Source: an uncultured bacterium
Lineage (GTDB): Bacteria; CG03; SLGR01; JAGXOG01
Assembly: GCA_964476445.1 (NCBI GenBank)
Contig: CAYZAK010000001.1
Span: forward strand, 83,271-147,270
Length of the DNA stretch: 64,000 nt
Reading direction: 5' to 3'
Every line of letters starts with the position of its first letter. Within the stretch, counting starts at the first letter, position 1. Made by a program: the position numbers and the translations under genes. The notes beneath the pieces were generated by a model that made no database searches, was not told where the DNA came from, and saw only the letters and a program-made list of their open reading frames with translations. Positions 1 to 54,573 of the stretch are shown here, piece after piece.

Positions 1-1639
1 CTCCCCATCTGTCTCCCCGCCAGTATTCCCAATTACCGGCACCATCGTCTTTTCTTAACTGTATTGCTACCTCACTTACTCTGGATCCGTAATTTGGATC
101 CCTGAAAGAACCCGTAAAAGTAGCAATCATTATATTATACGATTCTCCCCTGACCGGATAAACCATATCACTGTAAGGCGGAGTTATATCGTACCTGAAC
201 TCGGAATTGTAATTTTGGCTATTTAAAATATCGGTTTCCTCAACCTGCTCTTTATTAGGCTCCGATTTTACATCATCATAAGCCCTGACCCATATATTAT
301 TTACCAGTCCATCTCTCAAATTCACCCCGGTATAGGTCCAGGAAGAAGGATGCAATTCAGCTTCCACCCAGTTAATATCTTCCGTGGTCCATCCCTGTTC
401 TGTCCAGTAGTCCTCCTCATCCATCTGTATAACAAGTTCAACTTTGCTTACATCGGAATACTCATCAACTGCTGTTCCGTAAATAGTGAAAGTATGAGTG
501 GAGTCGTTTATCTGTTCGAATTCTCCCTCCATGGGGTACTCTACAAAAGATTCCGGAGTAGTGATATCGTAGATAAATGAAATACCGTTTTTTTCAGCGG
601 TGCTTTCCTGATTGCCGGCCAGGTCGGTCATTTTGGAAGTTACCCAATATTCCGAGCCGGCCGCTCCCCAATCTACATTGGAAGAATTCCAGCTCCAGGA
701 AGTAGTTCCTTCAACCAGGATCCAGTTTTCCTCTGCCAAGTCAAAATCAGTGGTTTCTGTATTATAATAATATTCACCGTTAAATATGGAAATACCCACA
801 AAATCCACTCCCTGGTCGTCGTAAGCAGACCCCTGGATTAAATCCATCTCATTGTAGTTCTGGCCTCCTCCTTCAGGATAGGTTACCGCCGAAACTCCCA
901 CTTGGGTATCGTAAACTATTCTATTCTTCAGAGGAGATTCAATATTTTGAGCTTCATCGTGAGCCCGGGTATATATCCAGTGTTCCTCCCCGTCATTCCA
1001 CTCGGCGGCGGTGGCGTCCCAAACCCATTGTTCGCTGGGAGAATCAAACGCTTCTCCTAACGGAGCCGCGGGATTCCAGATATAAGTTTCGCTTTCCTCC
1101 CAATTACCCTCACCGCTATGATTCCAGAAATAAGTAGTTCCTTCATCAATATATTTTAATGCTATATCAACTTCGGTTATGGCTGAAATTTCTCCCGCAT
1201 CCACCGCGGTACCTTCTATGGTGGGCTTCTCGTTTACATATTCCCCGTCCGGACTGCTTATTCCGGTCTCCGGGGGGGCATTATCCACCCAGAAATCAAT
1301 AGAACTTTCCACTGTCTCGGTAGAACCCAGAGAATCAAAAGACCTGGTCCACAGACGGTATCTTGCCGCCTGGGATTCTTCTTCCAGTCTCCACAGAGCA
1401 GGTACCCCGCCGGTCCACTCTTCGGTTCCATCCCGGGGACGCCAGTTTTCTTCGGCCACCCAGGAGCCTCCCCCTTCCCAGTATAGATCTTCATAGGCTT
1501 CGTCACCCTCCATATACCGGAGTTTTATTTGAGCTCCGGTAACTTCGGCCGGAGAGTATGCCAAAGCGGTTCCCGAAATATCGGTTAAAGGTTGAGTATG
1601 TAAACCAACATAGGGCATAGTTGATGCGGACACCGGTCG
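1..1639 (-). repeat. Trp-rich Ig-like repeat block 4 (4 full units + 1 partial)
   Basis: Units begin RPVSAST, DNAPPET, DTQVGVS, DITTPES, DITPPYS; same consensus as the other Trp-rich blocks. Confidence 0.8.
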
Positions 1640-25600: not shown

Positions 25601-27313
25601 GGCTCCCTGGCCTATTTCATCACGGGGCCTGGACCCCATGATATTGATCTCATTAAGTGTGAGCCGGGGCGCCACTTCAAAACCTATTGGTGGAGATATA
25701 TCCTGTCTTGTATTTGTCTTTCCTCCATCCGGATGCCTGAGTTCAAGCTCCCAGTTGTCGGAAACCGGAGAAGCGGTAGATAGCACCGTAACATACAGCT
25801 CAAGAGTGTTTGCGCTTATACGGTTTTTATCCCTTATAATAACCCCGCCGTGCGGATCCGGGTGCTTAAGTTCGGCAATTACATCTTCTCCAATATAAGC
25901 TCCGTTTACTGTTATGGTAGACCACTGTTGAGAATCGAGAGGAACTCCTTGAGCCCGGCTTTTAGGATTAAAATCATATATCTGTGGGCGCCTGGTAATT
26001 GTAAACTCAGGACTGCGGCCGGGGGAGGAAATACCTCCGTCCGGATTTACCACCCTTACTCTTTCCGTTCCAATACCGGAATTTCGGGTTATCTCAACTG
26101 TTGCGGTTATGGTTCCCGGAGCGAGGTCGTAATTATAGTCATAAGCGAGCACACCTCCGTGTTCAAAATCAAGCGTCGCACCCGGCTGAAACCCGTGACC
26201 GTATACGCTGTAAGTGAAAGTCGAGGCGTTTTGACCGTAAGGCCCCTCGGTGCTTGCCTCGTATACCTGGGGAAGAAATCTGACGGGAACCTCCTGGGAA
26301 GCTCCTGCTCCGTCTATATTGACGCTTATATTTACCGTCCCTGTGATATTCGGGGCCTCAAAAAGAGTCCAGGAATTTTGCCAGACAGACGGCTCTGTTG
26401 ACGGTATATTGTAGTCATCCCAACCCTCAAACCTTATTTCACTCGAAGCGTTTCGGTCTCTAAACATTCCCCCCCGGATCTGGAGCATTATCGGTTCATC
26501 CGGAGTGCTTCCCAGAGTCTCGGTTATTTCTTCTTCGGCGGCATCAAGCACGCTGTATATGTAAGGCCTGAATGTCAGATTATCACTCCAGTTAAGGTAA
26601 GAGTTATTATCTCCCCCGGTATTGTTGTAATAAAAAGCCACTGCACCGCCGTCGCCGGCACTGACTATCTCGTTTTCCACTTCCAGGACCAGCCGGTCTC
26701 CATGATCAATCTCCAGATTTGGATGGGTCTCGGACTCACCGTCAATTATATTGGCCTGCCATCTGTTATATGAACCCTCGCCGCCTGTCTCAGTTTCCGA
26801 CATCGGGCTTTCTCTTATTATCCATTCATTTTTCCGGCTTCCATCGCCCCGCGGCTCAAAATATTCAGTAGAAAGCCAGTTCCTCCTCCATAAATAAATG
26901 TATGCGTTTGCCCTGTGCTGGGGCATTGCATCCTGGTCGTCGTCACTTCCGGCTATTCCAAAACATCCTCGGAAGGTCCAATTCGTTGCATTATATATGG
27001 TCTGTGCGCCATCCAGAGGCGGGGAGACAAAAACACCCATATTATAGTAATCCCCATCAGCTCCCACACTAAATCTATGCTCCTGCTCTTCACTTCCCTG
27101 CCCTATGGTCATAGGATAGGCTTCGCCACTTGCATATTCACGGTCATAATATATACGTCCCCGCGGACTGTTTGGCCTGGGGCCTCTTTCAAAACCGTAA
27201 ACCCCTCCGCTTCGGGGATAAATCGTGTCCGTCTCTATGCCGTCAGCGAAAACCGAGCCGGCGGACAAAATAAGCACAAATATTATGTTTAACAGCGTTT
27301 TATACATCTTCAT
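1..27313 (-). CDS. Giant secreted/surface repeat protein, at least 9,104 aa, 3'-partial (continues beyond position 1)
   Basis: ATG at 27313-27311 overlaps the TGA of the upstream gene (ATGA). N-terminus MKMYKTLLNIIFVLILSAGSVFA-DGIE is a Sec signal peptide. Hand translation stayed open down to position 2 (ends ...GAGNWEYWRGDRWG). Frame checks at 26564, 13508, 8099, 3644 and 1640 agree. The ORF track lists no fragment of this frame, as expected if it has no stop inside the window. Confidence 0.95.
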   Translation of the reverse strand, partial: MKMYKTLLNIIFVLILSAGSVFADGIETDTIYPRSGGVYGFERGPRPNSPRGRIYYDREYASGEAYPMTIGQGSEEQEHRFSVGADGDYYNMGVFVSPPLDGAQTIYNATNWTFRGCFGIAGSDDDQDAMPQHRANAYIYLWRRNWLSTEYFEPRGDGSRKNEWIIRESPMSETETGGEGSYNRWQANIIDGESETHPNLEIDHGDRLVLEVENEIVSAGDGGAVAFYYNNTGGDNNSYLNWSDNLTFRPYIYSVLDAAEEEITETLGSTPDEPIMLQIRGGMFRDRNASSEIRFEGWDDYNIPSTEPSVWQNSWTLFEAPNITGTVNISVNIDGAGASQEVPVRFLPQVYEASTEGPYGQNASTFTYSVYGHGFQPGATLDFEHGGVLAYDYNYDLAPGTITATVEITRNSGIGTERVRVVNPDGGISSPGRSPEFTITRRPQIYDFNPKSRAQGVPLDSQQWSTITVNGAYIGEDVIAELKHPDPHGGVIIRDKNRISANTLELYVTVLSTASPVSDNWELELRHPDGGKTNTRQDISPPIGFEVAPRLTLNEINIMGSRPRDEIGQGATDETLRITGSGFESGNVEVWFDEEADIEVKGVETYATRIEALIDVAGDCPAGPRDIHVRNINNGGYYVWFGSMTVNPRPVINQIVHPEWPTPLQLGVYSETTLEIEGQNFVESRIQLDFGVEDDEIELVDAVVEEEGTKLYATVRIHDGCPLGPKDLKIINQDLGESDPLPDAIDVVGAPGLESLDPAEAGQGAEDYQVTLHGSNFQDGCEIDFGSGISVEIVDYNPETLTVLLNIDEYTSTGLRDVTVTNPDGGYVTRNNFFNVTHSPDINYITPEVRAQGVTGSTLVVVGDGPYFQEGIDIWFSKSSTGYPVDDKIDVGELTSFSQNVMEFVNFNVDAEADLGDRWIVAENPDGGIFISGVSVLSIVEPPYLTPDELTVEGSNPSNQLGQNAREITLRIRGSGFETGISASDVFFDVPHIEVETVNWRSSSRIDVLVNVYHDCPVGDREVTVRNPVSGGTASRDDPGYFVIGARPDNISIVSPVPFEFGQRAQTSGQAVEITGDNFVSGLRIYFGEEWIPLSNVSVDPAKIQCDITVDEYMSTGYSDLIIVNPDQGNYVITDGVMINPHPVLQEFDPDFIGRGADDREMVVQAPGFKEGAVLTLVGPPSGQYNFHSYNYDYGSSSFTVLLDVGEELDVDTYDVRIENPDFGWDILEDGIEIRRNPEIEWISPDNVARGATDREIRIRAPEWGSYQEGCEVYFSTYSAGSPEDPGITVTTITYTDSRTLDIEITVSPEADWSPGGNPDRYLRLLNPDGGEYVTEDPLLTINKPPLLETCNTGASWPAESYELGQGAQSVTLELGGENFQEGADIIINEDDGDVAVTDVDFISSSRIDVTVNVSPDAALGAASVTVTNPDEGTSTQSDPEFLTITPKPAITSASPDNYGQGSEDVEIVLTGEYFLQSIGEEDIDFGSGISVKNVIVESDQELRVTVDIDGNASPVARDVTIVNPDFGVGVGEDVFSVNLGPRVDSISPTTRGQGSQGVEVDIKGAYFSDALTHDDVWFSGTRIDVTDVPFVAVDGSSMTVVIDIAHNASTDTARDVTVRNPDMGMDTIEGAFTVGLKPEIYECDPDALGAGALDQIIEVTGEGFQSGLEAYFSLSSLGDTEDNQISIGDISGDGDVITFSNVDVDPEAEIGPRYLVVINPDGGRAVSDEPVFEVTLAPVIQAISPNRLGQNASNITLNISGLNFQEGIGYGNVTFEPSSGITKHEVNRISEDSIQVRVSINAEADPGFRNVRVENPDQGADVDEDGFQITPRPRFHYASPDAAGQGAQNRIIEIHGTGFQTGMEALFGGDGISPNPAGASGSSTEMSVTISISTDATAPSERSIRLEDPDYGYSIVFDTFTINRAPSVTQLSPSSLGQGAQQREIIVQGSNFQDGITPEDISFSHGGDGIEVTNVEYQSPSEITLTVNVPHGCTAQTGDITIVNPDGGIKTETGIFTVNPAPDVTEIVPSQLSQDMYDEEINIYGSGFDVPGNISREVSFGTTTIETISVSYISDSQLRAYINILSTAGAQDYDITVVNRDGGVTTVTNGFTVSDKPYISHLNHPERGRGALEQDMRIYGGAFQEGSTVTISGEGLTLSTTTRIGSGELQVTLSITYGADLGPRDVTVVNPDGGTYILEDGFTVGDSPATAIGAPWKSRHNDTLTHSTGTVTTDAEKVYLSLKRLSDERWFRAGSGFVSTSEEWIEAAYTTGEEVWEYSMPLGELQHGTSYYIRTYGHGTNAGREQPGSGVTFIYDTEAPEVSITRPVHLAHYNDGSGEIDNRLNQIFGTAEEGTEKIELRIRDQDSELFWDGSDWVSQDQFFDVNAIDPSNWSYSISTANWIDGHSYNVRVRATDIAGNISTPGTGRTFRMDFQVPVTEVLNPEDEGIYNELTVISGSVNDEPGIGEVTMVQIYIQRQSDDFYYDGTEWQNSIEWIDVTSFDQEEWHYNVVEGTFDDGYYEIKVRAQDRAMNLECSDDGTSKPESVFFTWDETPPVTSVVFPEEDDIISDPDMVVEGTWSDPHGIDRIEICIENTDTGRWWTGGSWTDHSEQWVSSEDFANFEIYDGTWSYSGIPWLSGEHRIRTRGSDIVGNIEEPGPARGFMFDATAPDVNIVSIPEDGGWYNDVLTHFQGETADDEHGTGVDSVSLKIQDLSRGTTFWTGTSWVNDPSEDTWAEVSPPLGIWEYPVPPLEHGHVYSVTPRAEDVAGNVSYGSTNMFYYDIESPSSFITTPDDGQYGVISMVEGYSFDSPQDMDGHGVVEIYIYNETDEEYYTGSGNQWDSQMQWLEASWGSWMSAYSFRRWHYELPELSHGKEYTVVSRATDDAGNVEETHPEITFTYNENIPYSLITLPRDGTIIDGNISLVRGEVLNLSEESLSGVDVSIVRGEISGSEKVYYRWDWAEEEWVEVSGTVSYYHWAGADYPAGDRHYFEVDVSGINFDEQEAVYRIYSRARTQSYSESAGRGTAFEIETGFPLTWPDSPVHGDYLSEIEEITGLGAGNIPAQVQVSVQKVAVPEELDVYDENQEDEYWRWTHDEWQSTVYWLDADLSGIEGDWNWSLDVSESGPEGEIDWIHGYYYRIRSRARDINETHTGGTLIMVDRVDPVSEILYPSPGTFKDILTISGTAMDKDSGIAQNGIEVQIRYEDGGTIYYWDEDAGEFSSTTDNRWHSGVCDSAVGGSTVTWTFDASNLNNEFQHGIEYQLLSRATDRAGNVEDPPVEGPQIICDREGPDSVITSPPTGRIINFFTESYDISGTANDALSQVEQVEIQVKRGANYLQDDYSWDAEDNWLQTEYELGEWNISLTTDCWVNDHSSTITVRAIDNLGNIGPAQSSIWFIFDDEPPESEVLKPDGLHNYNDSDHDITDMIYGTVTDNQQVRDVYVRIQRGALDQYWNAEIEDWEEDEDSWNRAQVWSSSWTFTDIPSWVDNWEYRVWSYAVDTATNTESIPGNTYSFIYDSIPPESSVTVPDEDSFWSSSPQLQGASYDGGAGVYDVRALLKYTEGGQSFYWDSVGWAETETPQWISVEEPLSEWHVDPGDLPDEADFTPGRIYRAVSRARDERGPASPRYLNVENYEENWNEFIWDPAPPESEAVYPLNDGLIAEDAFIEGTAHDETGAMEDIPGEMVKTGKVEAVYVRLKKIDGGSEYWWDNTSSPSVWTTDPVWAETQLSPDATSWVLSDSPQWETLEDDYEANIRALDAAGNWETDFSTVSFAADFIPPETEITVPIHGNDYDTLDVIRGTAEDNYENIPTRGMNYVELMIVRDSDGYTWNGDSWSSGGNDWIETDVVSEGPLHWEWEYDLPGVIWESGEYYTVISRGVDKALNIETEEETGKNQNTFRFVAPAETFKISMDLSDSDTTDVQAGEELTIQVEAYNITEEITAMGYRGTVYFNLGGPAGVAGVVPSSYTFTAEDDGIKTFSGEVSTETTRFFSANTGPYPTADGDIYLEVYDDDTYAEPISTRAYVNVYPSALSRFTFQENWANTRAGESRTLTIEARDDFGDMEGGYGNIKHDYLGVVRFASNDPLISRGDGLPEDYEFQESDYGVVTFTEGFIFRRANIGEGNETEKWHVSARDQTVPGSESFYENLVVEPDMLDSFLVVTDTGPQIAGYEGQAASITVSAVDEFLNLLSSGTYEYTGEVEFTSSDTQAELPASPYSFTGEDNAHVEFETSVILKTAGEHWIRVRDEEREREGLQEGIEILPAPASYFRLSVSTDATAGEYNDIVIEALDPYGNRDVNFESLDDNDEGIKLSGTGGFMTNVSHDIVDFYAANNGISTYTAVVAFTEAGTGREITATNIVDQEPVGISETIDGIRVFNAEPDHFTVDRISPEPPIAAGTTMETFRVWIRDEFGNRCQNPPYLGTVEFASSDEQAVFNPETFEYTEEHGGRREFPDLFTLKTLGDQDIYINSMEGPDVIGSTIAITVVPAEHDGFRVETSTIQTSGERYSTRVESIDEYGNIVTDYTGSVRFDSDASDFDFIPFEYDFQEEDQGIREFRSIDGEGIRFSTRGVYYLRVYDFESPAKDGIKEDVFVTDRPVSTVTFPEDGDYINELTPPAIEGTHWDDEEVVEVKVKIQRVSNMFFWNEDAGEWQENEFLNEAEVHESSWTYAGEGINWISGNDYRIMSRARDNRGNYEIDYSTITFLFDSTPPETSFTHPEDGGHRNEPFLVSGTAMDYPAGFDSGLAQLRLQITHQRPGDPATYYWDTPDWVTTESTLYPPAGEEWVYDTMPNWQEGYLYHIYAWHSDHAGNVEDIKSVSFIYDETPPESTISKPDSDYESDKTLEKIWGTAEDLPAEPYYSAGVDRVQVRISSGTGTEIFWDGSSWQHMDPGQAWQEAEWWGSSWTYTSLEGAFEDGITYNVNARAIDRTTSDGITGPNVEVDFSTRTFIYDTIAPETVMERPEDNNTYEMMPEIYGTASDTPPGEVDYVEIRIRQTAGGDFTGMMWDWQEDEWSSSPQQEWSDGITPDGESWSISTSGVSWQATAEGVQYETEFRATDRAGNVEETKSHTWYYSSPFPTTVINTPSGTELNPNYYRSPSQISGEADEYTYENETYVLISSGPTYGTYWDNDSGQWSDTEVWNQVDTPTGEAPYSWYLSVDQSVWIDGTMYNIRSKGVGPAGEESPGSGRYFIIDQTDPTASVQEPAAGAHHQSVSRISGIAEDPSGEAWGYELGKIGEVHITIQDTEDNYYQQGGDWGAGEHWIPVQPIDGTFDSLSEEWYWDVDYPTAVWEDDGQYFIRSRARDHVQPSPNTGSSGLSELIIDTIPPTSGITEPYEEYYNALPQIMGTGADTPPGEWYDIDIMIRRTPGTTRYWDGGGWSISKETLSDEDDEDLIIYSSSWTYSDISWASGYEYRITVRGKDRSGNIETSTQTAEFVYDNRPPVTGGDQPSDGGYYNELLEITGTAQDDSSGQELVSGIEDVEVAYRKSEGTTGYWTQEDWTGQSSEGNWWTAFYSAGNWTEEVENPFADEDSPPDDGQYQVIIRALDKAGNWQTEFSTVTFTWDLTPPGFSDVSPSTSATINSMDVGLTLDEKMQVGPTRVVFEAQSGWNEEVEGSTYTAILNEAQGEDLEFQTIPWDQFDGELIDGNRYTLRLEGQDLAGNFDDGSWYFSDMIYDTTRPQSKFTYPYKYDHSTMSIISGTAEDPPPTAGSFFAGVEGTEVRIFRDYGEGSQESWDGESWDSGSHWLSAEGTESWQYEVTVTTAFEHNREYRVETRAYDSAANTQTVPTAHLFMMDTVPPEGLIEFPEPDEYYNTMTDISGTAADDLSGISVDGVKLRIRKSDSPIYYWSGTDWVLDEVWVEASFSVEDWSFESGPGASALGEYDDGTPFEVLAMISDDAGNTYTAPAVTFYNDTAFPSAEITNIESGQYYNPNTLVDIEGEASGEPSGIYSVEVVVEAEDEYWNPATESWQGDEIIWIPAESTTADTYETWKVGGINWLDGIPHHIWMRVTDKAENRTVYDTESDSTIENIQDYYVRFTYDETPPDSLVDFPENNKYYNIQYGTVTGQAFDPLPGSGVSRVRILLQRASDDQWWRGTYWGGERTMTVDFFDPDWEFYISPEARSVFYENPEEEYFIYTYAEDYAGNIEDLTAKTTFYYDVVPPTSTVELPETETEEEYYTAGDEVDTLIHGGQYDGYSGIDKVEVKISSGNNYWTGSVWTEEEQYSAINAQLHTSSWTYTDVPVWEDDVLYEITSRALDVAGNVGETPVTKRFQYDISEPESFVEMPVDGQGYEMMDEITGTALDATSGVDEVEVAIRENFGDLRHWDTQTGDWVSGTVFSTMVFSGGKWRFDSSGVPWQDDSDYRIRLRATDNVGITETNITNESQSVFTYYKPAVDFEFVRPDGTELDGEVTAGSTVPFKLTALNEDGNPAKWYQGTVEFSVAHEEYDTAPTSYTFTTADEGSRIFEGNVSSTALNFVYRDASSWVRAEDSDDEDLFKVQNIDVKWAPAQKIQLTGVPAYQVAGEIQSPVVEIFDGQWGDWGNPVEDFDGEVTFESENYPYETDMPGNYNFDGIEGGEHEFTDQLELKEKNQDTGWQVNARIVGTSIENDQYVIVNPAGIDHFILTGLPDPFEAGAESGITVEARDEFENTKTDYQGTISFDTDDVHEEVNFPDDYTFEPEDSGVHNFEGLTVTDTVRLITSGSRYVRVEETAFGVWMGTRTVTVEPSAVEAFEVSMTTQITAGVVQNITVEAVDEFGNLQTDYTGTVVFDSDNENFESLGPGEISDGYQEFTNWVTLKEASDPLTQRFEVTVEDGNNNLGSQEGIMVEAAVAEKLTVDYPGQVDAGSPNTAGVSVRDEFNNIVYDWSGEVTFHTGGTDDTATVDGFAVPVELTLTEGSENYTAIYRSAGVNQELWAYAGGLSSGTRTGITVDAGELEQFGVKLGGLSEDNAVSINRPVDITVEAQDEFDNVVENYVSTVTFASEDILADLPGPSNYTEDDDGVKTWPGGAVFNSSNTAEGWKITVTDDNDATKTGESVNVRVLLPPDTSVDMPYDGYRSWSLDSTSGTAVPHHEDYAEVTKVEMRLYCESGGDREGQYWRGGISWGAERWRELDYNSQEQVFYSEDLPSWDNLDVDGNAIYRFYFRAYDSLKGTETVRGPYRFYTDRGLPESEITSHSHGENYSSIDLIEGTAKDPGEFSNITNVQIQISYIDEGTTYYWNQSIQSTTTASYWNDTTEATGDGFGISPVVDWYFNAENVAWQNQKEHKIRTRSVDDAANVEEPVYEIAVTYDTDTPVSDIDVPAEGEVRNELEVISGTAFNEFGVDKIDVRIEKDGQYWTGSGWGGEEWLEGASGNWGDSAVSWNFSIPGEPFDENTQYQLTSRAEDTAGNVEDAGDLTEVIFIYDTLAPTATVTSVYDGDAVNWSFEGIEGTAYDTNEVELVQVALRRDPGAWWDGTAWSTDFEDMKWIDGQTADNYENWNLPQIDWENGRMHQVWMRVKDEAGNKEVYDSDVSQHIEANQGSLLSFRYDESTPTAWVDYPKNEASHNDMVEPLTGAAEDYPSPNSGVSDVRIKIQRSSDGNYWDGEVWGGDISMYADYGAGSWEYGISETDIGIFYENNEETYYIYSRARDNAGNIEPWEIKSVYHYDVVPPTSTINYPDEGEYYTSGEPEEIRGEMHDGYSGVDFVKLQISSGSYNWTGSSWTTAEVRVETQMFTSSWTYTTLSGAWADAGAYEVKTYVKDEAGNVQISTPSVTFIYDDSEPYSYLNTPVDGAMYESMDVVRSTGADDLSGLDTVDMAIRQDFSPYYWWDASGSTWTEVQTYNPTTQSGEFFELDTSTIQWEDDRYYNVYARAVDNVGLQESDPSSSRFRYVKPVTHLSLELIDGTDLDGQFTVAGDDMDIQVRALNEDGTVALGYTGEITFYTTEDSEEAKLPDNYTFTLNDEGLAEFPAGLNLKKSGDWQVTVSAVDPEGPASDSNTVTVENASIEKVRLDLYEGSQTETAGDELSPRVRIYDGQWGEWGNLVLDYEGTVEFAFISDEDTQATLPSTHTFTTGEGEDNGDRTFTEEMVLRTTAEEGWTVRARDTANPGEWYGDMTIAVDPAGIDNFVLTGLPDPYRAGTSTGIVVEARDEFNNRKTDYTGTVTFDTDDEHEGVILPADYTFSTGTLADNGLHVFEADYDTTTVRLITAAENRVVRIKDTDYTPWMGEDQIEVIAGERVNYEVSMSTDIDAGADYDITVRAVDEFGNLDTGSSDPVQFFTNNPVGYYSLPTAGQNLVEGERTFTDGVTLNRSSWTTEGYINDPWYVEVRHIDHPSPEIDGRQPGIKVNPAETSQFRVTGIQATLAAGEEDAFYVIARDEYGNRDINYSNTVTFTSDNTDWTVAPGTFTYSTSTERGLNLFTVEFRESGDNFSLRAFQSDPYDETIEGHQYPISVEPASLDSLSLSGIADPQRVDYETSGVLVQAVDQFGNIFENYTSTVSFNAPTSDIQVSPEPYNFVLEDEGESEFEVKMMTPGEHDVQVYDINDPDIYGWQDGITVATRPVSASTMPYVGLHTQPLTDISGTALAYSPAEVTGAQIKLRYMEGDEAYEDLYWEGGGSWVAEENWRPRDGTEEWTGGVPALWRLEEESQAARYRLWTRSFDSLGSTETVESSIDFWVDNAPPETGISSPDGEYVNEKPTIEGTAVDAGEISAITEVDIALKYIDEGTTYFWNHSGEGNWEESETYIWNPAAPLGEAFDSPSEQWVWDATAAEWNDGEEHWIYTRAHDEAQNIESPLKNRIVYDTQVGVSAVTYPEGGGQNYNEMDLIQGSAYDDQGVDFVGISIFNGEYYYNTETTDFDLAEENWILVEGTTSWSWNSSNVDWGAAGSEYWVTSKMTDLAGNQESTAEKNGISFIYDITTPESFVEYPMEGEFEQINDSTHTFTIYGTAVDEYSDVSKVELVIQMDEEDYWTEQGWTTEDINWVEAELHPSSWTYTGVNLRDGLVNNIWVRAYDDVKSEPNKEQVEETDILNSQNYNSEFRYDITPPYSDMVYPVRGESYNIMIATFTGSFRDPNYGSRVSEVAIQLRKDDGAGNWEYWRGDRWG
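1640..3646 (-). repeat. Type-B Ig-like repeat block 3 (6 units)
   Basis: Six ~100-115 aa units, e.g. AGIDNFVLTGLPDPYRAG..VEARDEFNNRKTDYTGTVTFDTDD..LPADYTF. Confidence 0.8.
3647..6146 (-). repeat. Trp-rich Ig-like repeat block 3 (7 units)
   Basis: Units begin PPDTSV, DRGLPES, DTDTPVS, DTLAPTA, DESTPTA, DVVPPTS, DDSEPYS. Confidence 0.8.
6147..8101 (-). repeat. Type-B Ig-like repeat block 2 (6 units)
   Basis: Six units with A-x-D-x-F/Y-G/x-N...Y-x-G-T-V-x-F motif. Confidence 0.8.
8102..13510 (-). repeat. Trp-rich Ig-like repeat block 2 (15 units, one Trp-poor variant at ~10262-10597)
   Basis: Units begin DRPVST, DSTPPET, DETPPES, DTIAPET, SSPFPTT, DQTDPTA, DTIPPTS, DNRPPVT, DLTPPGF, DTTRPQS, DTVPPEG, DTAFPSA, DETPPDS, DVVPPTS, DISEPES. 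Confidence 0.8.
13511..15592 (-). repeat. Type-B Ig-like repeat block 1 (6 units)
   Basis: Consensus AG..v.v.A.D.FGN....Y.G.V.F.S.D...LP..Y.F...D.G...F, e.g. VESIDEYGNIVTDYTGSVRFDSD..FEYDFQEEDQGIREF. Confidence 0.8.
15593..20692 (-). repeat. Trp-rich Ig-like repeat block 1 (14 units)
   Basis: ~115-130 aa units: DxxPPxSxIxxP...IxGTAxD..SGVxxVEVxI...YWxGxxW...W...WxY...WxxGxxYxIxSRAxDxAGNxE...FxY. Confidence 0.8.
20693..26569 (-). repeat. 20 tandem IPT/TIG-like repeats
   Basis: ~90-105 aa units with P-x-I-x-x-x-x-P..GQGA..v.I.GxxF.xG..v.F....R.V.V.NPDGG, e.g. APSVTQLSPSSLGQGAQQREIIVQGSNFQDG...ITIVNPDGG. The first unit is more divergent. Confidence 0.8.
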
Positions 27314-28890
27314 AATGCTATGACCACATATTTTCTTATGAAGTATAAAATCACGCCGTAATAAAGTATGCTTATATAAGAAACATAAGCAGCTTTATGC
27401 TCAAACCTGTAGACTATAAATGCCGCCGTCAGGCCCAACACTCCGGCGGCAATATACAGCATACTCAAACCCGTCAGTAACGGAACAACCATAAAAGCGC
27501 TAAAAATAACCGGGGGAACAATATGCCTGCTTAGCTTTTTTCTGTACCTTAAAATTCCTGCAAGTGTAAAACCTAAAAGAGCCGCTTGCCACAGAGGGCC
27601 GGGCAAAAGGTGGACCGCTTCCCTGTCTGCAAGCAATCCATATCCGGTAAAGAAAGAAAACATGTATGTAAGAGCAATAAACAGATCAGAAATTATAGGT
27701 ATCCGTTCTATCTTAAGAGGCGGAAGCATTATAAAATAAAAAAGAAGAATAAATACGATAAGATAAAGCAGGCACCAGTAAGTGGTGTTGATAGCAGCAA
27801 ATATTGCCATAAAAAGGAAAATTGACGCTATCAGCTTCTGCTCTCCGAAAGAGGCCCATTTTAAAGACCGGTCAGATCTTTTATTAATAATCCCTTTTAC
27901 CGTGCAGATATGTAAATAGGCAAAAAAGACAGCCAGGGCAAGCATTACGGAAGCAAAGTAATCTATCGGATTCTGAAAGGCGTGGGGCAGCACATTTTCC
28001 ATTCTCCAGATTCCCATAACAATCCCGGCAACCGTGAGTGCTGCATAATTTAAACCTTTTGACCAATTAATATTTTTAATCCAAACGCTAAAATTTTTCT
28101 TTCCAGCATATATTCTAAACCATATTAATAGAAAAATCGTTATCATAACCATAAGCAAAATTCCGGTTATCTGGGTATTGGTGTGTACTAAACCGGGTGT
28201 TCCCATAAGCTTATCGCCAAGCGAAGCCCCAATTAATTCCTCAGGAACATATCTGCTAAATATGGGAAATATTCTGTATATAGGCCCAACAGTAACAACG
28301 TGAAGGAAACCTAGTAGTACAACAAAACTGAACTGACTCATTATCCAGCCTGATACCGCTTTTAAAATACTTTGGGTTTTTATATATATGTAAGTTGCCA
28401 CACCGATACAAAGAAAGAGAGCCTCTAACCGTTGTCCGATTGAGTGCCTTTCAAATTGGTAGAAAGGGTTAAAAATGTTTATGAGTGCTGGGAGTATTTC
28501 CGAAAATTCGGTTCCGTACTGTAAGGGATATCCTCCAACGGTAACATAATCCCATAAGGGGACAATCCAGCTCACAATCCAGAAAACAATAACTATTTTG
28601 GATATTTTGAGGATATTTTCCTTTGTGAGAAGATATATTATGCAGCAGACTATCAGATACATTTCAATGTGAGCAAGTGCGTATGCGTTAAATATCTTCA
28701 ATATGGAAAAAAACTGAGGATAAGACGGATGGGTTTCGTGTCCTATTGTGTGGGTCCAGGCAAGCCCGTCACCAAAATTTCTCATCAGAATTACTACGGC
28801 AAAGAAAAGCAGCCACCAGGCGGTACCCGCCGGGTTATTTTCAACGGGTTCAATAATTTTTTCCTTTATGCAGTTAATCATTATCTCCAA
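27310..28890 (-). CDS. Multi-pass membrane protein: unknown N-terminal membrane domain plus catalytically degenerate UbiA-like C-terminal domain
   Basis: Many hydrophobic segments. The C-terminal ~260 aa align by eye to the 288-aa UbiA two genes upstream but lack both Asp-rich motifs. Confidence 0.8.
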   Translation of the reverse strand: MEIMINCIKEKIIEPVENNPAGTAWWLLFFAVVILMRNFGDGLAWTHTIGHETHPSYPQFFSILKIFNAYALAHIEMYLIVCCIIYLLTKENILKISKIVIVFWIVSWIVPLWDYVTVGGYPLQYGTEFSEILPALINIFNPFYQFERHSIGQRLEALFLCIGVATYIYIKTQSILKAVSGWIMSQFSFVVLLGFLHVVTVGPIYRIFPIFSRYVPEELIGASLGDKLMGTPGLVHTNTQITGILLMVMITIFLLIWFRIYAGKKNFSVWIKNINWSKGLNYAALTVAGIVMGIWRMENVLPHAFQNPIDYFASVMLALAVFFAYLHICTVKGIINKRSDRSLKWASFGEQKLIASIFLFMAIFAAINTTYWCLLYLIVFILLFYFIMLPPLKIERIPIISDLFIALTYMFSFFTGYGLLADREAVHLLPGPLWQAALLGFTLAGILRYRKKLSRHIVPPVIFSAFMVVPLLTGLSMLYIAAGVLGLTAAFIVYRFEHKAAYVSYISILYYGVILYFIRKYVVIAL

Positions 28891-29858
28891 TCAAGTTTTC
28901 TCTCTTCTGCTTCCCGTATTCGTTCTATGCTTTCAATACGGCTATCCAGTGTTTCTCTGTAAACATCCCCACGTGAAGGCACATATTTGTAGCTTTCCCT
29001 GTATATCTCTTCTGCTTTTTCCAACTCGCCTTTTCTCCTGTAAACATCTCCCAGAAGAAGACTTATCCCCGGGTTATCCGGTGATATTTCAAGCGCATCA
29101 TAAACAATACTCAAGGCCCTCTCATACTCCTCGGCACTCAGCATTGAATTAGCCAGGTACAGGTGGATAACTGCCGTTCTGTTACCTAATTCTTCATTTT
29201 TCAGGATTCCTTTAATGTATACTTTCTCCGCCTCATCATAGTTTTCTTTCCGGGCATGAAAAAACCCCAGGTAAATGTATCCCTTAAGAAAATCCGGATT
29301 TTCTTCAACAGTTCTCTTCAAGTTTTTTTCCGCATTTTCAGAGTCATCCAATTTCATGTGCGTATGCCCAAGCACGAAATAAGCAATAAATTTATCGGGG
29401 TTTCGGGATATTGCTTTTTCAAGTACGGAGAGCGCGTCATCATTACGATTAGCTCTGGCGTATGCATCACCAAGCATCACTTTGGAATAATAATTGCCGG
29501 GAATTGCCTCATTTAGTTGTTCGGCAAATTCAAGAAGCTGCTCAAATTCGGAATCCATCGACGCAGCCCTGCTTAACGTCTCCCTTGCTTCATCAGGATA
29601 GTTTAAAATGTAGTAAGAGTACGAAAGAAGATAAACAGGAACAGCGTTTTCCGGCTCATCATCCATCCATTCTTCCGCTAAATCTTTCAGCATATCGAAA
29701 TCTTCTTTTTCATAAGCAGCAGATACTTTTTGCAGGAGATTTTCGTCAGCCAAACCGGAAGTGCTTAAAGCAAGGCATATAAAAACAATAAGGATAAAAT
29801 ATTTAATTATAATTGCGTAGTTTCGCACAGAAATTGTTTTTTTATAACTGTTCCTCAT
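28881..29858 (-). CDS. Exported tetratricopeptide-repeat protein
   Basis: Signal peptide (..LALSTSGLA-DE). TPR units such as AYFVLGHTHMKLDDSENAEKNLKRTVEENPDF and ISLLLGDVYRRKGELEKAEEIY. Confidence 0.88.
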   Translation of the reverse strand: MRNSYKKTISVRNYAIIIKYFILIVFICLALSTSGLADENLLQKVSAAYEKEDFDMLKDLAEEWMDDEPENAVPVYLLSYSYYILNYPDEARETLSRAASMDSEFEQLLEFAEQLNEAIPGNYYSKVMLGDAYARANRNDDALSVLEKAISRNPDKFIAYFVLGHTHMKLDDSENAEKNLKRTVEENPDFLKGYIYLGFFHARKENYDEAEKVYIKGILKNEELGNRTAVIHLYLANSMLSAEEYERALSIVYDALEISPDNPGISLLLGDVYRRKGELEKAEEIYRESYKYVPSRGDVYRETLDSRIESIERIREAEERKLDWR

Positions 29859-30721
29859 ATAATTCCTCCGTACATAAGCTCACTTCTTAAAAATAAAAAC
29901 ATAACTGCCGAATAAACATAATAAGTTACAAAATACGGACCTTCGTCCCACTTTTTTTTAAGAAGCCAGTAAACACCAAGCACGGAACCCGCAATGGAAA
30001 AGTAATAAAGAGCGGTGATACCAAGAATTACAGGTACGCTAAAATAAGCCAGTACGGTAAGCATAATAATCATAGCGCGTGCCAATCTTTCGCCCATGAT
30101 CGTCGGAATAGTTTTTATACCCTCAACCAAATCTCCTTCTCTGTCTTTGATATCTTTAATATTTATAGAAAACATGAAAACCACAAATATCATAATTGCC
30201 ACGCGATGCGGAAATAATTTGGGCGTTTCATAGCCTGCTATTACACTGAATCCGGCAACCACAGCAATCAAAGCATTAAGAGCTATTACTAAAGTGTTTA
30301 GGGGGAAAAAACGTTTTAACCGAAAAGGCGGCATGGAATAAAAAACTGCTGATATATAGCAGCATAAAATAAGAATTAAAGGAACAAGCCCAGCCAGATA
30401 ACTTAAAATAACAGAGACAAAGAAACAAAATAGCCCCCACTTTTTATAAATAGAAGCGCTTACCTTCCCTGTCAGTAACGGGCGATCCGGGTTAGAAACC
30501 CTGTCTCCATTAATATCATAAAAATCATTAAAAACGCAGGCAGCCTGGAAAGCAAATATTATACCTGAAAAAAGAAATATTATTCTCATTAAATATTCAC
30601 TAAAACTTCCCTTAACGGCGGGATGCCAGCAGGCTATAAAAGCACCGCCTAAGACCAGTCCCGAATAATGAACCGAACGATACGGCCTCATATTTTTAAT
30701 GAGCACTTTTAAGTGACTCAT
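29855..30721 (-). CDS. UbiA-superfamily prenyltransferase (DGGGP-synthase/chlorophyll-synthase-like motifs), substrate unknown
   Basis: Both Asp-rich motifs intact: NDFYDINGDRVSNPDRPL and NIKDIKDREGDLVEGIKTIP; YSMPPFRLKR; ~9 hydrophobic segments. Confidence 0.92.
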   Translation of the reverse strand: MSHLKVLIKNMRPYRSVHYSGLVLGGAFIACWHPAVKGSFSEYLMRIIFLFSGIIFAFQAACVFNDFYDINGDRVSNPDRPLLTGKVSASIYKKWGLFCFFVSVILSYLAGLVPLILILCCYISAVFYSMPPFRLKRFFPLNTLVIALNALIAVVAGFSVIAGYETPKLFPHRVAIMIFVVFMFSINIKDIKDREGDLVEGIKTIPTIMGERLARAMIIMLTVLAYFSVPVILGITALYYFSIAGSVLGVYWLLKKKWDEGPYFVTYYVYSAVMFLFLRSELMYGGII

Positions 30722-31404
30722 CTTAACAGTTCTCCTCTTTCTCTTGTCTCTTCAACCCTCCTTAACCCTCTCAAAGCGGCGTTTTTAACAGTTGGTTCTC
30801 CTTCATCCGCCGCTTCTGTCAAAGCTCTCTCAATCCTGACGGTATCCCCATCGTCAGGCGCCCCCGATATAAGCATCTCTGCAAGCGAATCAAGGGCAGC
30901 TACCCGAACCCGGGAACTTTCATGGTCTTTGGCTTTTTCAACCAGGATATCAAGCACTTCCTCTCCCCCGCTTCTTCCCAACGCTCTTATAGCAGCTGGT
31001 CTTGTGTTTTCATCTCCTTCAGCAACTGCCTCTACAAGGGCTTCCACGGCTTTTTTCTCACGGAACCCGCCCAGTGCCTGGGCCGTCATTATCCTGACCG
31101 CAGCGGACTGATCGGAATTTAAAGCATTCAGCAGCGCCGGCAGGGCGCTTCTGTCCCCGATCCGACCAAGTGAAACTGCAGCATGTAACCTTACTCCGGA
31201 AGAGTTGTCCTCAAGCAAAGCTATTAACTGCGGAAGGGATTCCCTGTCAAGTTCGTTGCCCAGGCGCTGCGCTTCCCTCATCCGGACAACCGGGTCGGTG
31301 CTGGATAAAAGAGTGTATTCCGCCCAAAGAACAGAATTAACAGTTATTGCGAATATTGCCGCAATAACCGTAACTTTAACTAACTTATTAATTTTTTTAA
31401 TCAT
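30718..31404 (-). CDS. Exported HEAT (PBS-lyase-like) repeat protein
   Basis: Signal peptide (..VNSVLWA-E). Repeats such as DNSSGVRLHAAVSLGRIGDRSALPALLNAL. Confidence 0.88.
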   Translation of the reverse strand: MIKKINKLVKVTVIAAIFAITVNSVLWAEYTLLSSTDPVVRMREAQRLGNELDRESLPQLIALLEDNSSGVRLHAAVSLGRIGDRSALPALLNALNSDQSAAVRIMTAQALGGFREKKAVEALVEAVAEGDENTRPAAIRALGRSGGEEVLDILVEKAKDHESSRVRVAALDSLAEMLISGAPDDGDTVRIERALTEAADEGEPTVKNAALRGLRRVEETRERGELLR

Positions 31405-31422
31405 CTTTATTTTTTATTTTTC

Positions 31423-31493
31423 TTTCTCAACATGCAGATAAATACTTACGCCTGAAGGTTAAATTATAGTTGATTTATCTGAACCTTGAGAAA
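31423..31493. repeat. Two-armed imperfect inverted repeat enclosing a minus-strand TATAAT
   Basis: TTTCTCAA(31423-30)/TTGAGAAA(31486-93) and CAGATAAAT(31435-43)/ATTTATCTG(31473-81); attata at 31463-68 reads TATAAT on the minus strand. Confidence 0.7.
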
Positions 31494-31535
31494 TAGATTT
31501 GAACAGACGAGATATTTGGGGTGACTGGGTAAATA

Positions 31536-32042
31536 TTATTCTAAAAAGACGGGAACCCTGAATCTGGGCTCGTCTAAGGTAGGTAGGTTTCCCTTAAAAG
31601 TTAAAACTGTGGTAATAAAAATCAGGGGGAACCCTAAAAAGAAAAAAGTGCTGTTAGTACCGGAATGGGATAACAACCTGAAAAATTCTTTCATTGAAGT
31701 GTTTGGGCTGTAAAATAGAGTAATCGCCGGAGAAGGAAACTCAAAATTGGGAACATGGTTTAAATTTGCTTCCACCGGGGTTAAAGGTCCGCGACGCCAC
31801 CTGGTCGAACCGGCCGGGCTTAAAATATTGTAAATTTTTGAAAACGCGGTCTGTTCAAAGACAACTGCGGACTCTACCGGCCGGTTGTTTTTATCCCTGG
31901 ATTCTACCCTCATAAAATGAGAGGTGTCGCCGCCGGGAATATTTAAAACCCGGGCCTGGAGCTTTTGCCCGCCGGATAATCCTCCGATCATTATGGAGGT
32001 CAGCGCGAATATTAAAGTTATTTTTTTTATCTTATTATTCAT
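31536..32042 (-). CDS. Hypothetical exported protein with hydrophobic C-terminal segment
   Basis: 168-aa ORF with signal-peptide-like N-terminus and FFFLGFPLIFITTVL near the C-terminus; first gene after the riboswitch terminator; no recognised family. Confidence 0.6.
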   Translation of the reverse strand: MNNKIKKITLIFALTSIMIGGLSGGQKLQARVLNIPGGDTSHFMRVESRDKNNRPVESAVVFEQTAFSKIYNILSPAGSTRWRRGPLTPVEANLNHVPNFEFPSPAITLFYSPNTSMKEFFRLLSHSGTNSTFFFLGFPLIFITTVLTFKGNLPTLDEPRFRVPVFLE

Positions 32043-32077: not shown

Positions 32078-32111
32078 AAAAAAATCCGGTTTCACTGATA
32101 AGGTAAACCGG
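32078..32111 (-). terminator. Intrinsic terminator (riboswitch expression platform)
   Basis: Minus-strand RNA CCGGUUU-AC-CUUAUCA-GU-G-AAACCGG followed by AUUUUUUU. Confidence 0.85.
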
Positions 32112-32127
32112 CTTTATGCTAACCTTG

Positions 32128-32213
32128 TCCTACCGGTAATCCAGCCCTCCGGATGTCCCGGAGCTGTGATTTTGCGAGCCGCCCGTTACCGAACGGTTGC
32201 CCTTATCAGCGGA
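32128..32213 (-). promoter_or_regulatory. Cyclic di-GMP-I (GEMM) riboswitch aptamer
   Basis: RNA UCCGCUGAUAAGGGCAA-CCGUUCG[GUAA]CGGGCGG-CUCGCAAAAUCACAG-CUCCGG[GACAU]CCGGAG-GGCUGGAUUACCGGUAGGA. P2 has a GNRA loop; GCAAA linker; UUACCG 3' motif; P1 UCCGCUG/CGGUAGGA. Positions equivalent to Vibrio Vc2 G14-C93, G20, A47 and C92 are all present. Confidence 0.88.
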
Positions 32214-32243
32214 CTTTCCATATATTTCATACTTCAATCGTTC

Positions 32244-32279
32244 ACTATAATTACTAACATCAGTTTTACAATTTGTCAA
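32244..32279 (-). promoter_or_regulatory. Probable sigma70-type promoter for the riboswitch leader
   Basis: TTGACA at 32279-74, TTGTAA at 32271-66, TATAGT at 32249-44 (TTGTAA-N16-TATAGT); exact -35/-10 pairing is ambiguous. Confidence 0.55.
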
Positions 32280-50737: not shown

Positions 50738-51238
50738 CTATTGATTAATTTTCCTCCCTCTCAACATTACTCTTTGAGAAAGCGTCGCGCTCTGCTGATT
50801 CTGAGTTACAGTCAGAGTGGCTCCCACATGGGCATAGTTTGAAGCGGGTTCCGTATCCATATATATAAAAAATTTTTCCACCCCACCGGGAATTAAAGTA
50901 GTAGTTGACTTTCTCATCATCCTGTATAGATTATCTCCGGATTTAAAATATTTAATTGTATTGTCCCCCCCCCACTCCTGGGTTGAGCGAGAAATTTTAA
51001 ATTTTATTGAACTGTTACCGGTTATCTCAATAGGATCTTCCGAAGTCTGCCGGACATATCTTGTGATTTCATTCATGGCCGATCTGGATTTTCCAAACAC
51101 ATCAACCGAATCCCTGGTCATCCACCATATATCAAAAGTATTTCTAAAAAACCTGAAAGTTCCAATACTTAAAATTCCCAATATGGCTATACTTATACCC
51201 AACTCTATTAAGGTTACACCCTGGTTCTTTTTTATCAT
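50738..51238 (-). CDS. Type IV prepilin-like protein (PilW/GspJ-like minor pilin)
   Basis: Class III signal KKNQG-VTLIELGISIAILGIL (G-1, E+5). Confidence 0.88.
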   Translation of the reverse strand: MIKKNQGVTLIELGISIAILGILSIGTFRFFRNTFDIWWMTRDSVDVFGKSRSAMNEITRYVRQTSEDPIEITGNSSIKFKISRSTQEWGGDNTIKYFKSGDNLYRMMRKSTTTLIPGGVEKFFIYMDTEPASNYAHVGATLTVTQNQQSATLSQRVMLRGRKINQ

Positions 51239-53583: not shown

Positions 53584-53586
53584 CTT

Positions 53587-54555: not shown

Positions 54556-54573
54556 TAAGCCACAAAAAGTACT

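What the first reader, a model, noticed from the sequence alone, without database searches (positions are those of the whole stretch)
32078..32213. c-di-GMP-I riboswitch with a readable OFF-switch platform upstream of the giant-protein locus
Seen: a complete GEMM fold with G at the Vc2 G20-equivalent and C at the C92-equivalent. Established: G20 is associated with c-di-GMP preference and A20 with 3',3'-cGAMP. Seen: the aptamer 5' strand CGCUGAUAAGG (32211-32201) is complementary over 11 nt to CCUUAUCAGUG (32103-32093) in the terminator loop and 3' arm. Inference: without ligand this pairing blocks the terminator (ON); ligand locks P1 and the terminator forms (OFF). Downstream surface genes would then be expressed at low c-di-GMP, opposite to the usual biofilm-adhesin logic and more like a motile or host-seeking state.
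Basis: partly seen in the sequence, partly recalled or inferred. Interest (0 to 1): 0.8.

Follow-up and report, generated by a model that had tools for sequence, protein, structure and literature searches.

The report
c-di-GMP OFF riboswitch before giant-protein operon
This is a genuine c-di-GMP-sensing RNA switch of a well-known class that most likely stops transcription when c-di-GMP is high; it sits in front of an envelope-protein operon ending in a giant (>9,000 aa) surface protein of an Elusimicrobiota bacterium.

Summary
Rfam's c-di-GMP-I model (RF01051) matches window 32211-32132 on the minus strand at 45.4 bits (gathering score 35), over the full model. It is the only Rfam hit in the 64 kb. 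G20, C92 and A47 equivalents are present, and a closing P1 helix has the same geometry as in Vc2.

An intrinsic terminator follows: a 7-bp stem, a 12-nt loop and U7.

Ligand-free folding favours the antiterminated fold by about 10 kcal/mol. The ligand-competent aptamer is compatible only with the terminator fold. This is the OFF logic of the characterised Cd1 riboswitch.

A relative (L135-L137, flanking protein 56% identical) has the same riboswitch at the same syntenic position (45.7 bits), with the same three alternative helices and a 9-nt identical terminator-loop block.

Control of the first gene (168 aa) is well supported. Control of the giant gene is plausible but uncertain, because a conserved promoter-like block lies in the 131-nt gap after the first gene. 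Nothing was tested experimentally. This is a new member of a known kind.

The parts
32244..32279 (-). Promoter-like region: TTGACA 32279-32274, TTGTAA 32271-32266, TATAGT 32249-32244. The block TGTTA.T.ATTATAGTGA is conserved with L135.
   Evidence: Consensus scan and alignment with L135. The transcription start site was not determined.
32207..32214 (-). P1 5' strand, GUCCGCUG. G32207 is the Vc2 G14 equivalent.
   Evidence: Co-transcriptional MFE at length ending 32127; pairs listed; G14 stacks under the C92:ligand pair in Vc2 (PMC11705072).
32201..32206 (-). J1/2 junction, AUAAGG. G32201 is the G20 equivalent, which contacts one guanine of the ligand.
   Evidence: Rfam alignment; role of G20 from PMC6140456.
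32132..32211 (-). c-di-GMP-I aptamer as matched by Rfam RF01051. First hairpin with GUAA loop 32195-32180; second hairpin 32171-32138.
   Evidence: 45.4 bits against a gathering score of 35, full model.
32127..32137 (-). A91/C92/C93 equivalents (32137-32135) and P1 3' strand CGGU(A)GGAC (32135-32127). ACCGGU 32137-32132 doubles as the antiterminator strand.
32105..32112 (-). Switching strand GCCGGUUU. It pairs either with ACCGGU 32137-32132 (antiterminator, -8.6 kcal/mol) or with AAACCGG 32092-32086 (terminator).
32093..32103 (-). Terminator-loop element CCUUAUCAGUG, complementary to 32211-32201 (11 bp, -15.1 kcal/mol). CUUAUCAGU is identical in L135.
32078..32092 (-). Terminator 3' arm AAACCGG (32092-32086), A, then U7 (32084-32078).
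   Evidence: Sequence; the isolated hairpin folds at -9.4 kcal/mol. The scan missed it because its loop limit is 8 nt.
31536..32042 (-). First regulated gene: 168-aa protein with a signal peptide, a C-terminal TM segment and an invariant EPRFRxPV..E tail. No Pfam or NCBIfam match.
31405..31535 (-). 131-nt gap with promoter-like TTCTCA-18-TATAAT (31492-31463) and the conserved block TCTGCATGTTGAGAAA (31438-31423). No intrinsic terminator was found.
27310..31404 (-). Four overlapping genes: HEAT 228 aa, UbiA prenyltransferase 288 aa, TPR 325 aa, and a polytopic membrane protein of 526 aa.
   Evidence: Overlaps are 4, 4 and 10 nt.
1..27313 (-). Giant ORF. Its start ATG 27313 forms an ATGA overlap with the stop of the 526-aa gene. 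It has a signal peptide and TIG/Big Ig-like repeats, exceeds 9,100 aa, and runs off the window.

Best explanation
This is a class I (GEMM-I) c-di-GMP riboswitch acting as a transcriptional OFF switch.

The leader is transcribed on the minus strand, probably from a promoter around 32279-32244. Once the RNA reaches about 32127 the aptamer is complete. It consists of P1 (32214-32207 : 32135-32127), the J1/2 junction AUAAGG with G20 at 32201, two hairpins, and C92 at 32136.

If c-di-GMP binds, P1 and the junction are held in place. The downstream strand GCCGGUUU stays free and pairs with AAACCGG. The hairpin plus U7 then terminates transcription at about 32084-32078, before the 168-aa gene.

If no ligand is bound, the weak P1 is displaced by two helices. 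First ACCGGU (with C92/C93) pairs with GCCGGU in the terminator 5' arm. Then CGCUGAUAAGG (P1 5' strand, junction and G20) pairs with the terminator loop. This four-way-junction fold prevents the terminator, and transcription continues into the 168-aa gene. It probably continues through the 131-nt gap into the HEAT-UbiA-TPR-membrane protein-giant protein operon.

Shown: family membership, the helices and their mutual exclusivity in silico, and conservation in one relative. Inferred: ligand binding, termination, the promoter, and read-through to the giant gene.
For: - Rfam score above threshold, and for the syntenic ortholog as well.
- G20, C92 and A47 equivalents are present. Their roles are described in PMC6140456.
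- P1 closes exactly at the G14-C93 equivalent with a 5-nt junction before G20, as in Vc2 (PMC11705072).
- The MFE series along the transcript goes in order: aptamer with P1 at 32127, the ACCGGU:GCCGGU helix at 32105, then the 5'-strand:loop helix from 32096.
- At the decision point the antiterminated fold is -53.5 kcal/mol. The P1 + free junction + terminator fold is -43.8 kcal/mol. The default state is therefore ON, and about 10 kcal/mol must be supplied. Vc2 binds c-di-GMP with a picomolar KD (PMC6140456), which by my estimate is roughly 15 kcal/mol.
- L135 has the same P1, antiterminator, terminator with U8, and a loop block CUUAUCAGU that is identical over 9 nt although the adjacent linker has diverged.
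- Pair-preserving changes between the two sequences: A-U to G-C at the base of the second hairpin, U-G to C-G in the first hairpin, G-U to G-C in P1, and A-U to G-U plus U-G to C-G in the antiterminator.
- The same PATH-type logic is established experimentally for Cd1 (PMC9262584). Class I riboswitches are uniformly OFF in C. difficile (PMC6200980).
Against: - There are no experimental data.
- Only two distinct sequences are available, so covariation is anecdotal.
- The terminator stem is modest (7 bp, -9.4 kcal/mol) with an unusually large 12-nt loop.
- In the window the antiterminated fold is so much more stable that switching must be kinetic. In L135 the two folds are nearly isoenergetic (-52.0 against -53.0), so the balance differs between orthologs.
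- The transcription start is unknown.
- A related locus (L003) has the same gene cluster without any riboswitch.
- A conserved promoter-like block before the HEAT gene could uncouple the giant operon from the switch.
Confidence: 0.75

Rival explanations
1. ON switch. The long-range helix 32211-32201 : 32103-32093 is the real P1, using the second ACC at 32104-32102. Ligand would stabilise it and so prevent the terminator, giving expression at high c-di-GMP.
For: The 3' partner begins with ACC followed by a perfect P1-like strand. This fold is the MFE.
Against: That helix pairs G20 and all five junction nucleotides, and the companion helix pairs C92/C93. The ligand contacts are therefore buried (G20 uses its Watson-Crick edge, PMC6140456). 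The fold is already about 10 kcal/mol more stable without ligand, so ligand would have nothing to switch. Rfam's best alignment uses the proximal ACC, which has a Vc2-like P1. In L135 the long-range helix is only 6 contiguous pairs and ends in a G-A mismatch at G20.
Confidence: 0.05
2. The switch is real but controls only the 168-aa gene. The HEAT-to-giant operon is driven mainly by its own promoter in the 131-nt gap.
For: The promoter-like TTCTCA-18-TATAAT matches 10 of 12 consensus positions. TTCTCA and a 16-nt block before the HEAT start are conserved in the window, in L135 and in the riboswitch-less L003.
Against: No intrinsic terminator was found in the gap. The order riboswitch, 168-aa-family gene, HEAT gene, giant gene is conserved in two lineages, and the 168-aa family co-occurs with the HEAT and giant genes in L003 as well. 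This suggests one functional unit.
Confidence: 0.3
3. The aptamer senses another cyclic dinucleotide (3',3'-cGAMP), or is promiscuous.
For: GEMM-I and GEMM-Ib are nearly indistinguishable by sequence (PMC6140456).
Against: Position 20 is G in both the window and L135. cGAMP riboswitches carry A there, and wild-type Vc2 binds cGAMP only at about 10 uM (PMC6140456).
Confidence: 0.04
4. Chance match, or a decayed non-functional relic.
For: The score is only about 10 bits above threshold. The second hairpin lacks the model's tetraloop-receptor positions.
Against: The full-length match is conserved at the same syntenic site in a lineage whose flanking protein is only 56% identical. Pair-preserving substitutions and a conserved platform are present. 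The fold z-score is -4.9.
Confidence: 0.03

Closest known systems
Cd1 c-di-GMP-I riboswitch of Clostridioides difficile (flgB leader), a transcriptional OFF switch
   Same: Same aptamer class. An intrinsic terminator can coexist with the ligand-bound aptamer. The antiterminator is formed by the aptamer-stabilising 3' strand pairing with the terminator 5' (switching) strand. This is the P-A-T-H scheme of PMC9262584.
   Different: Here the 5' aptamer strand plus the whole J1/2 junction is also clamped, by 11 bp to the terminator loop. I did not see this described for Cd1 in the text I read. The window between aptamer completion and the switching strand is short, about 15 nt. The phylum differs (Elusimicrobiota against Bacillota), and the regulated genes differ (an envelope and giant Ig-repeat protein operon against flagella).
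Vc2 c-di-GMP-I riboswitch of Vibrio cholerae (structural reference)
   Same: G20, C92, the G14-C93-type closing pair, a 5-nt junction before G20, and a GNRA-type loop on the first hairpin.
   Different: The loop is GUAA rather than GAAA, and the model's receptor positions in the second hairpin are deleted. Vc2 has no simple terminator platform.
Cdi-1-2 class I riboswitch upstream of the calcium-binding putative adhesin CD630_27970 in C. difficile
   Same: A class I riboswitch acting as an OFF switch in front of a surface adhesin-type gene (PMC6200980). The 'surface protein made at low c-di-GMP' logic therefore has a precedent.
   Different: The target here is a multi-gene operon ending in a protein of more than 9,000 aa (15,767-18,919 aa in relatives), in an uncultured phylum.

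Membership tests
c-di-GMP-I riboswitch (Rfam RF01051, GEMM-I) | Covariance-model score at or above the curated gathering score | tested here: met
   45.4 bits against 35, full model 1-87. The ortholog scores 45.7 bits.
c-di-GMP-I riboswitch (Rfam RF01051, GEMM-I) | Ligand-contact nucleotides: G at Vc2 position 20, C at 92, and the intercalating A of the CGCAAA motif | tested here: met
   G32201, C32136 and CGCAAA 32176-32171 in the Rfam alignment. Roles from PMC6140456. The mapping of model positions to Vc2 numbering rests partly on my own knowledge of the Vc2 sequence.
c-di-GMP-I riboswitch (Rfam RF01051, GEMM-I) | Three-helix junction: two hairpins closed by a P1 (P1a) helix whose top pair abuts C92 | tested here: met
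   An 8-bp P1 with one bulge, G32207-C32135 on top and 5 nt before G20, predicted as the MFE at transcript end 32127. The need for P1a is shown in PMC11705072.
c-di-GMP-I riboswitch (Rfam RF01051, GEMM-I) | GNRA tetraloop docking into a receptor in the second hairpin. This is a frequent feature, not a universal one. | tested here: inconclusive
   A GUAA loop is present, but the model's CUAA/AuG receptor positions are deleted in both the window and L135. From memory of the original GEMM descriptions, GYRA-loop members often lack the 11-nt receptor, so I do not treat this feature as defining.
c-di-GMP-I riboswitch (Rfam RF01051, GEMM-I) | Selective high-affinity binding of c-di-GMP | not testable with these tools
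   Needs in-line probing or ITC.
Transcriptional OFF riboswitch (Cd1-type P-A-T-H platform) | Intrinsic terminator directly after the aptamer that can coexist with the ligand-competent aptamer | tested here: met
   A 7-bp stem plus U7, -9.4 kcal/mol. A constrained fold with P1, free junction and terminator is feasible at -43.8 kcal/mol.
Transcriptional OFF riboswitch (Cd1-type P-A-T-H platform) | Antiterminator that uses aptamer strands and excludes both the terminator and ligand binding | tested here: met
   ACCGGU:GCCGGU (-8.6) and the 11-bp 5'-strand:loop helix (-15.1) form the MFE at -53.5. The same design appears in L135.
Transcriptional OFF riboswitch (Cd1-type P-A-T-H platform) | Ligand-dependent increase in termination | not testable with these tools
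   Needs a single-round transcription assay or a reporter.

The most novel reading that the evidence does not exclude
In a clade of Elusimicrobiota, transcription of an operon ending in a 9,000-19,000-aa Ig-repeat surface protein is gated by c-di-GMP through a double-clamped OFF riboswitch. Both ligand-contacting strands are sequestered, one by the terminator 5' arm and one by the terminator loop. The giant protein would then be made only at low c-di-GMP. This would be the first regulatory handle on when bacteria express giant genes.
Probability: 0.4. Interest if true: 0.55.

Novelty: new member of a known kind. Interest (0 to 1): 0.4.

Why it matters
Giant genes are reported as common in Omnitrophota and Elusimicrobia, but nothing is known about when they are expressed (bioRxiv 10.1101/2023.11.21.568195; PMC12057145; neither mentions riboswitches).

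A conserved, readable c-di-GMP OFF switch at the head of such a locus gives a testable prediction: the operon is transcribed at low c-di-GMP. It also provides a compact RNA element that can be assayed in vitro without culturing the organism.

Mechanistically it is a clean natural example of an antiterminator that clamps both ligand-contacting strands. The riboswitch class and the OFF logic themselves are already well known.

Tried and rejected
1. Genome-collection pattern scan (AAGGGCAA...CGCAAAR...TTACCGG). It returned 119 or more diverse GEMM-I loci. None was a close relative (best alignments), and their platforms were too heterogeneous for a survey; only 29 of 121 had a terminator-like hairpin.

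2. Metagenome pattern scan with lineage-specific bases. All 10 hits are chance matches inside coding sequence.

3. Homologs of the 168-aa protein. Only two were found. Their loci, L003 and L004, have no GEMM match even at E <= 1.

4. A homolog of the 526-aa protein at 67% identity. The contig L134 starts inside the UbiA gene, so the leader region is missing.

5. HEAT-310 orthologs in L138, L139 and L140. They are not adjacent to a giant-gene cluster and have no riboswitch.

6. AlphaFold model of the 168-aa protein from a 3-sequence alignment. Mean pLDDT was 40.6, too poor for a fold search.

7. MAFFT alignment of the two leaders. It misaligned the switching strand by one column, so the L135 helices were checked directly by coordinates. 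The first attempt used coordinates off by one and should be ignored.

8. Search for c-di-GMP enzymes. None was found in the window or in 10 kb beyond its right end. Only a c-di-AMP synthase (DAC) lies outside the window.

9. The ON-switch reading with the distal ACC was considered and rejected on structural and energetic grounds.

Full report
**1. Observation**

On the minus strand, Rfam's covariance model for the c-di-GMP-I riboswitch (RF01051) matches 32211-32132. The score is 45.4 bits against a gathering score of 35, with E 1.1e-5, over model positions 1-87 of 87. It is the only Rfam family that reaches threshold in the 64 kb.

The alignment puts G32201 at the position just 5' of the G-C/G-C pairs closing the first hairpin, and C32136 as the first C after the second hairpin. 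By Vc2 numbering these are G20 and C92. G20's Watson-Crick edge reads one guanine of the ligand and C92 pairs with the other. cGAMP-sensing relatives carry A at position 20 (PMC6140456). The CGCAAA motif is intact.

The stated 11-nt complementarity is exact. CGCUGAUAAGG (32211-32201) pairs with CCUUAUCAGUG (32103-32093) through ten Watson-Crick pairs and one G-U, at -15.1 kcal/mol as a duplex. A run this long between the 5' flank and the 60 nt after the aptamer appeared in 96 of 20,000 shuffles. The leader as a whole folds 4.9 SD better than dinucleotide shuffles.

**2. Anatomy**

When the transcript is folded in steps, the aptamer closes once the RNA reaches 32127. The closing helix is P1, GUCCGCUG (32214-32207) with CGGU(A)GGAC (32135-32127). 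Its top pair is G32207-C32135, and the five nucleotides AUAAG precede G20. In Vc2, G14 lies directly under the ligand guanine paired to C92, and the P1a helix is required for stable binding (PMC11705072). The geometry here is the same.

After the aptamer comes a terminator: CCGGUUU (32111-32105), a 12-nt loop, AAACCGG (32092-32086), one A, then U7 (32084-32078). It folds at -9.4 kcal/mol in isolation. The consensus scan missed it only because its loop limit is 8 nt.

Two alternative helices compete with this arrangement.

- ACCGGU (32137-32132), which contains the C92 and C93 equivalents and the start of the P1 3' strand, pairs with GCCGGU (32112-32107) in the terminator 5' arm (-8.6 kcal/mol). 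It becomes the MFE as soon as 32105 is transcribed.
It pairs with the terminator loop from 32096 onward.

The 11-bp helix fills the 12-nt loop, leaving at most one unpaired nucleotide on either side. By my steric inference, it cannot coexist with the terminator stem.

**3. Direction of the switch**

At the decision point (RNA ending at 32086) the ligand-free MFE is the antiterminated four-way junction at -53.5 kcal/mol. The fold with P1, a free junction and the terminator is -43.8 kcal/mol. Two conclusions follow.

- The default state is read-through.
- The only fold in which G20, C92 and the junction are available for ligand is the one that leaves the terminator free to form.

Ligand must therefore favour termination, which is OFF. 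The roughly 10 kcal/mol gap is within reach of a class I aptamer. Vc2 binds c-di-GMP with a picomolar KD, which I estimate at about 15 kcal/mol. The decision is presumably kinetic, as modelled for the experimentally characterised Cd1 OFF switch. There the terminator and holo-aptamer coexist, and the antiterminator is the aptamer's 3' strand paired with the switching strand (PMC9262584).

I considered the opposite reading: that the long-range helix with the second ACC at 32104-32102 is the true P1, stabilised by ligand. I reject it for two reasons. That helix buries G20 and the junction, and the fold is already the most stable one without ligand.

**4. Comparative evidence**

The lineage is sparsely sampled. 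The 168-aa protein has only two database homologs.

Searching with the upstream HEAT-repeat protein led to a relative at 56% identity. It is held as L135, L136 and L137 (two JGI metagenomes and NCBI GCA_003552215.1). Rfam finds a c-di-GMP-I riboswitch there at 45.7 bits, at the same syntenic place. It lies directly after the HEAT gene and before a 160-aa homolog of the 168-aa protein, followed by the HEAT-228 homolog and a giant gene of 15,767-18,919 aa. The three copies are identical in the leader, so there are two independent sequences in total.

L135 has the same parts:

| Element | L135 sequence and coordinates |
|---|---|
| P1 | UCUGC(A)G / C(G)GCAGA |
| Antiterminator | GCCGGC 9105-9110 : GCCGGU 9133-9138 |
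| Terminator | AGCCGGU 9132-9138 : ACCGGCU 9154-9160, then U8 |
| Loop element | CUUAUC, pairing with the junction GAUAAG |

The loop block CUUAUCAGU is identical over 9 nt although the neighbouring linker has diverged.

Substitutions between the two sequences keep pairing:

- A-U to G-C at the base of the second hairpin
- U-G to C-G in the first hairpin
- G-U to G-C in P1
- A-U to G-U and U-G to C-G in the antiterminator

In L135 the two folds are nearly isoenergetic (-52.0 against -53.0 kcal/mol), so the set-point differs between orthologs. With two sequences this is consistent, not statistical, support.

Other relatives do not carry the element. L003 (an Elusimicrobiota MAG) has the HEAT gene, a 200-nt spacer, two UbiA genes, the 160-aa gene, a HEAT gene and a giant gene, but no GEMM match. 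L134 is cut before the leader. Best hits named by their sources are all Elusimicrobiota.

**5. What is regulated**

The first gene (32042-31536) encodes a 168-aa protein. It has a signal peptide, a C-terminal membrane segment and an invariant EPRFRxPV..E tail, and no family match.

After a 131-nt gap come five overlapping genes:

- HEAT 228 aa
- UbiA prenyltransferase 288 aa
- TPR 325 aa
- an approximately 11-TM protein of 526 aa
- the giant ORF

The giant ORF's ATG at 27313 overlaps the preceding stop codon as ATGA. It has a signal peptide and TIG/Big-type Ig-like repeats, and it runs off the window after more than 9,100 aa.

No terminator was found in the gap, so read-through is plausible. 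However, the gap contains a promoter-like TTCTCA-18-TATAAT, and that hexamer plus a 16-nt block before the HEAT start are conserved in the window, L135 and L003. I give about 0.3 to the possibility that the giant operon is largely independent of the switch.

**6. Comparison with what is known, and novelty**

The element is a member of a well-known family with a well-known type of platform. Class I riboswitches act uniformly as OFF switches in C. difficile, including one in front of a putative adhesin (PMC6200980). The 'surface protein at low c-di-GMP' logic is therefore not unprecedented.

Three things are new.

- The host phylum. A full-text search found no paper combining Elusimicrobia, riboswitch and c-di-GMP.
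- The conserved association with a giant-gene locus. The giant-gene literature I read does not mention riboswitches.
- The extra clamp between the 5' aptamer strand and the terminator loop.

I rate it a new member of a known kind, of moderate interest.

**7. Limits**

- There is no experimental evidence of binding or termination.
- The transcription start is unmapped.
- Only two sequences are available.
- The mapping of Rfam columns to Vc2 numbering rests partly on my recollection of the Vc2 sequence, cross-checked.
- The pseudoknot exclusion argument is steric reasoning, not computation.

Noticed in passing
window 32077-32039 (minus strand): Between the terminator and the start codon there are three tandem copies of ATG(TG)TATAG, which are absent from L135. 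They create three mini-ORFs. The last one (ATG 32059 ... TGA 32041-32039) overlaps the 168-aa gene's ATG as ATGA.
   Followed up: partly
window 31438-31423; L135 9725-9740; L003 about 3455-3470: A 16-nt block, TCTGnATGTTGAGAAA, just upstream of the HEAT-228 start is conserved in three lineages. It opens a mini-ORF (MLRK...) that stops after 7-8 codons in the window and L003, but is in frame with the HEAT gene in L135. An upstream TTCTCA hexamer is also conserved. This may be an internal promoter or leader.
   Followed up: partly
L135 8978-9658; L001 2764-2913: Gene callers placed ORFs across the riboswitch: a 226-aa ORF in L135 and a 49-aa ORF in the window's own contig. The real L135 gene starts at ATG 9176 (160 aa), which is probably why it was not retrieved as a homolog.
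   Followed up: yes
window 1-27313 against 28000-64000: The giant ORF is clearly more GC-rich (0.46-0.50) than the rest of the window (0.33-0.45).
   Followed up: no
window 27310-30721; L003 421-2796; L135 10423: The UbiA prenyltransferase, TPR and polytopic 526-aa genes sit between the HEAT gene and the giant gene in the window. They lie upstream of the 160-aa gene in L003 and are absent from that position in L135. The accessory genes of the cluster are therefore shuffled between lineages. UbiA plus a large polytopic membrane protein suggests a lipid-linked modification system, but this is speculation.
   Followed up: partly
L135 1-7913: In the relative, a complete chemotaxis cluster (CheA, CheB, CheY-like, CheR, ParA-like, CheW) lies directly upstream of the HEAT gene, riboswitch and giant-gene locus. 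In the window the upstream neighbours are mfd and uvrD-type repair genes.
   Followed up: no
window 50738-55842 (minus strand): There is a cluster with a pilin-like N-methylation-motif protein (166 aa), an FG-GAP/FlgD-Ig protein (782 aa) and a weak PilX_N-like protein (422 aa). It may be a type IV pilus or pseudopilus tip module.
   Followed up: no
L142 7738-8526 (beyond the right end of the window): A CdaA-type diadenylate cyclase (c-di-AMP synthase) lies just outside the window. No GGDEF, EAL or HD-GYP gene was seen in the window or in this 10-kb extension.
   Followed up: partly
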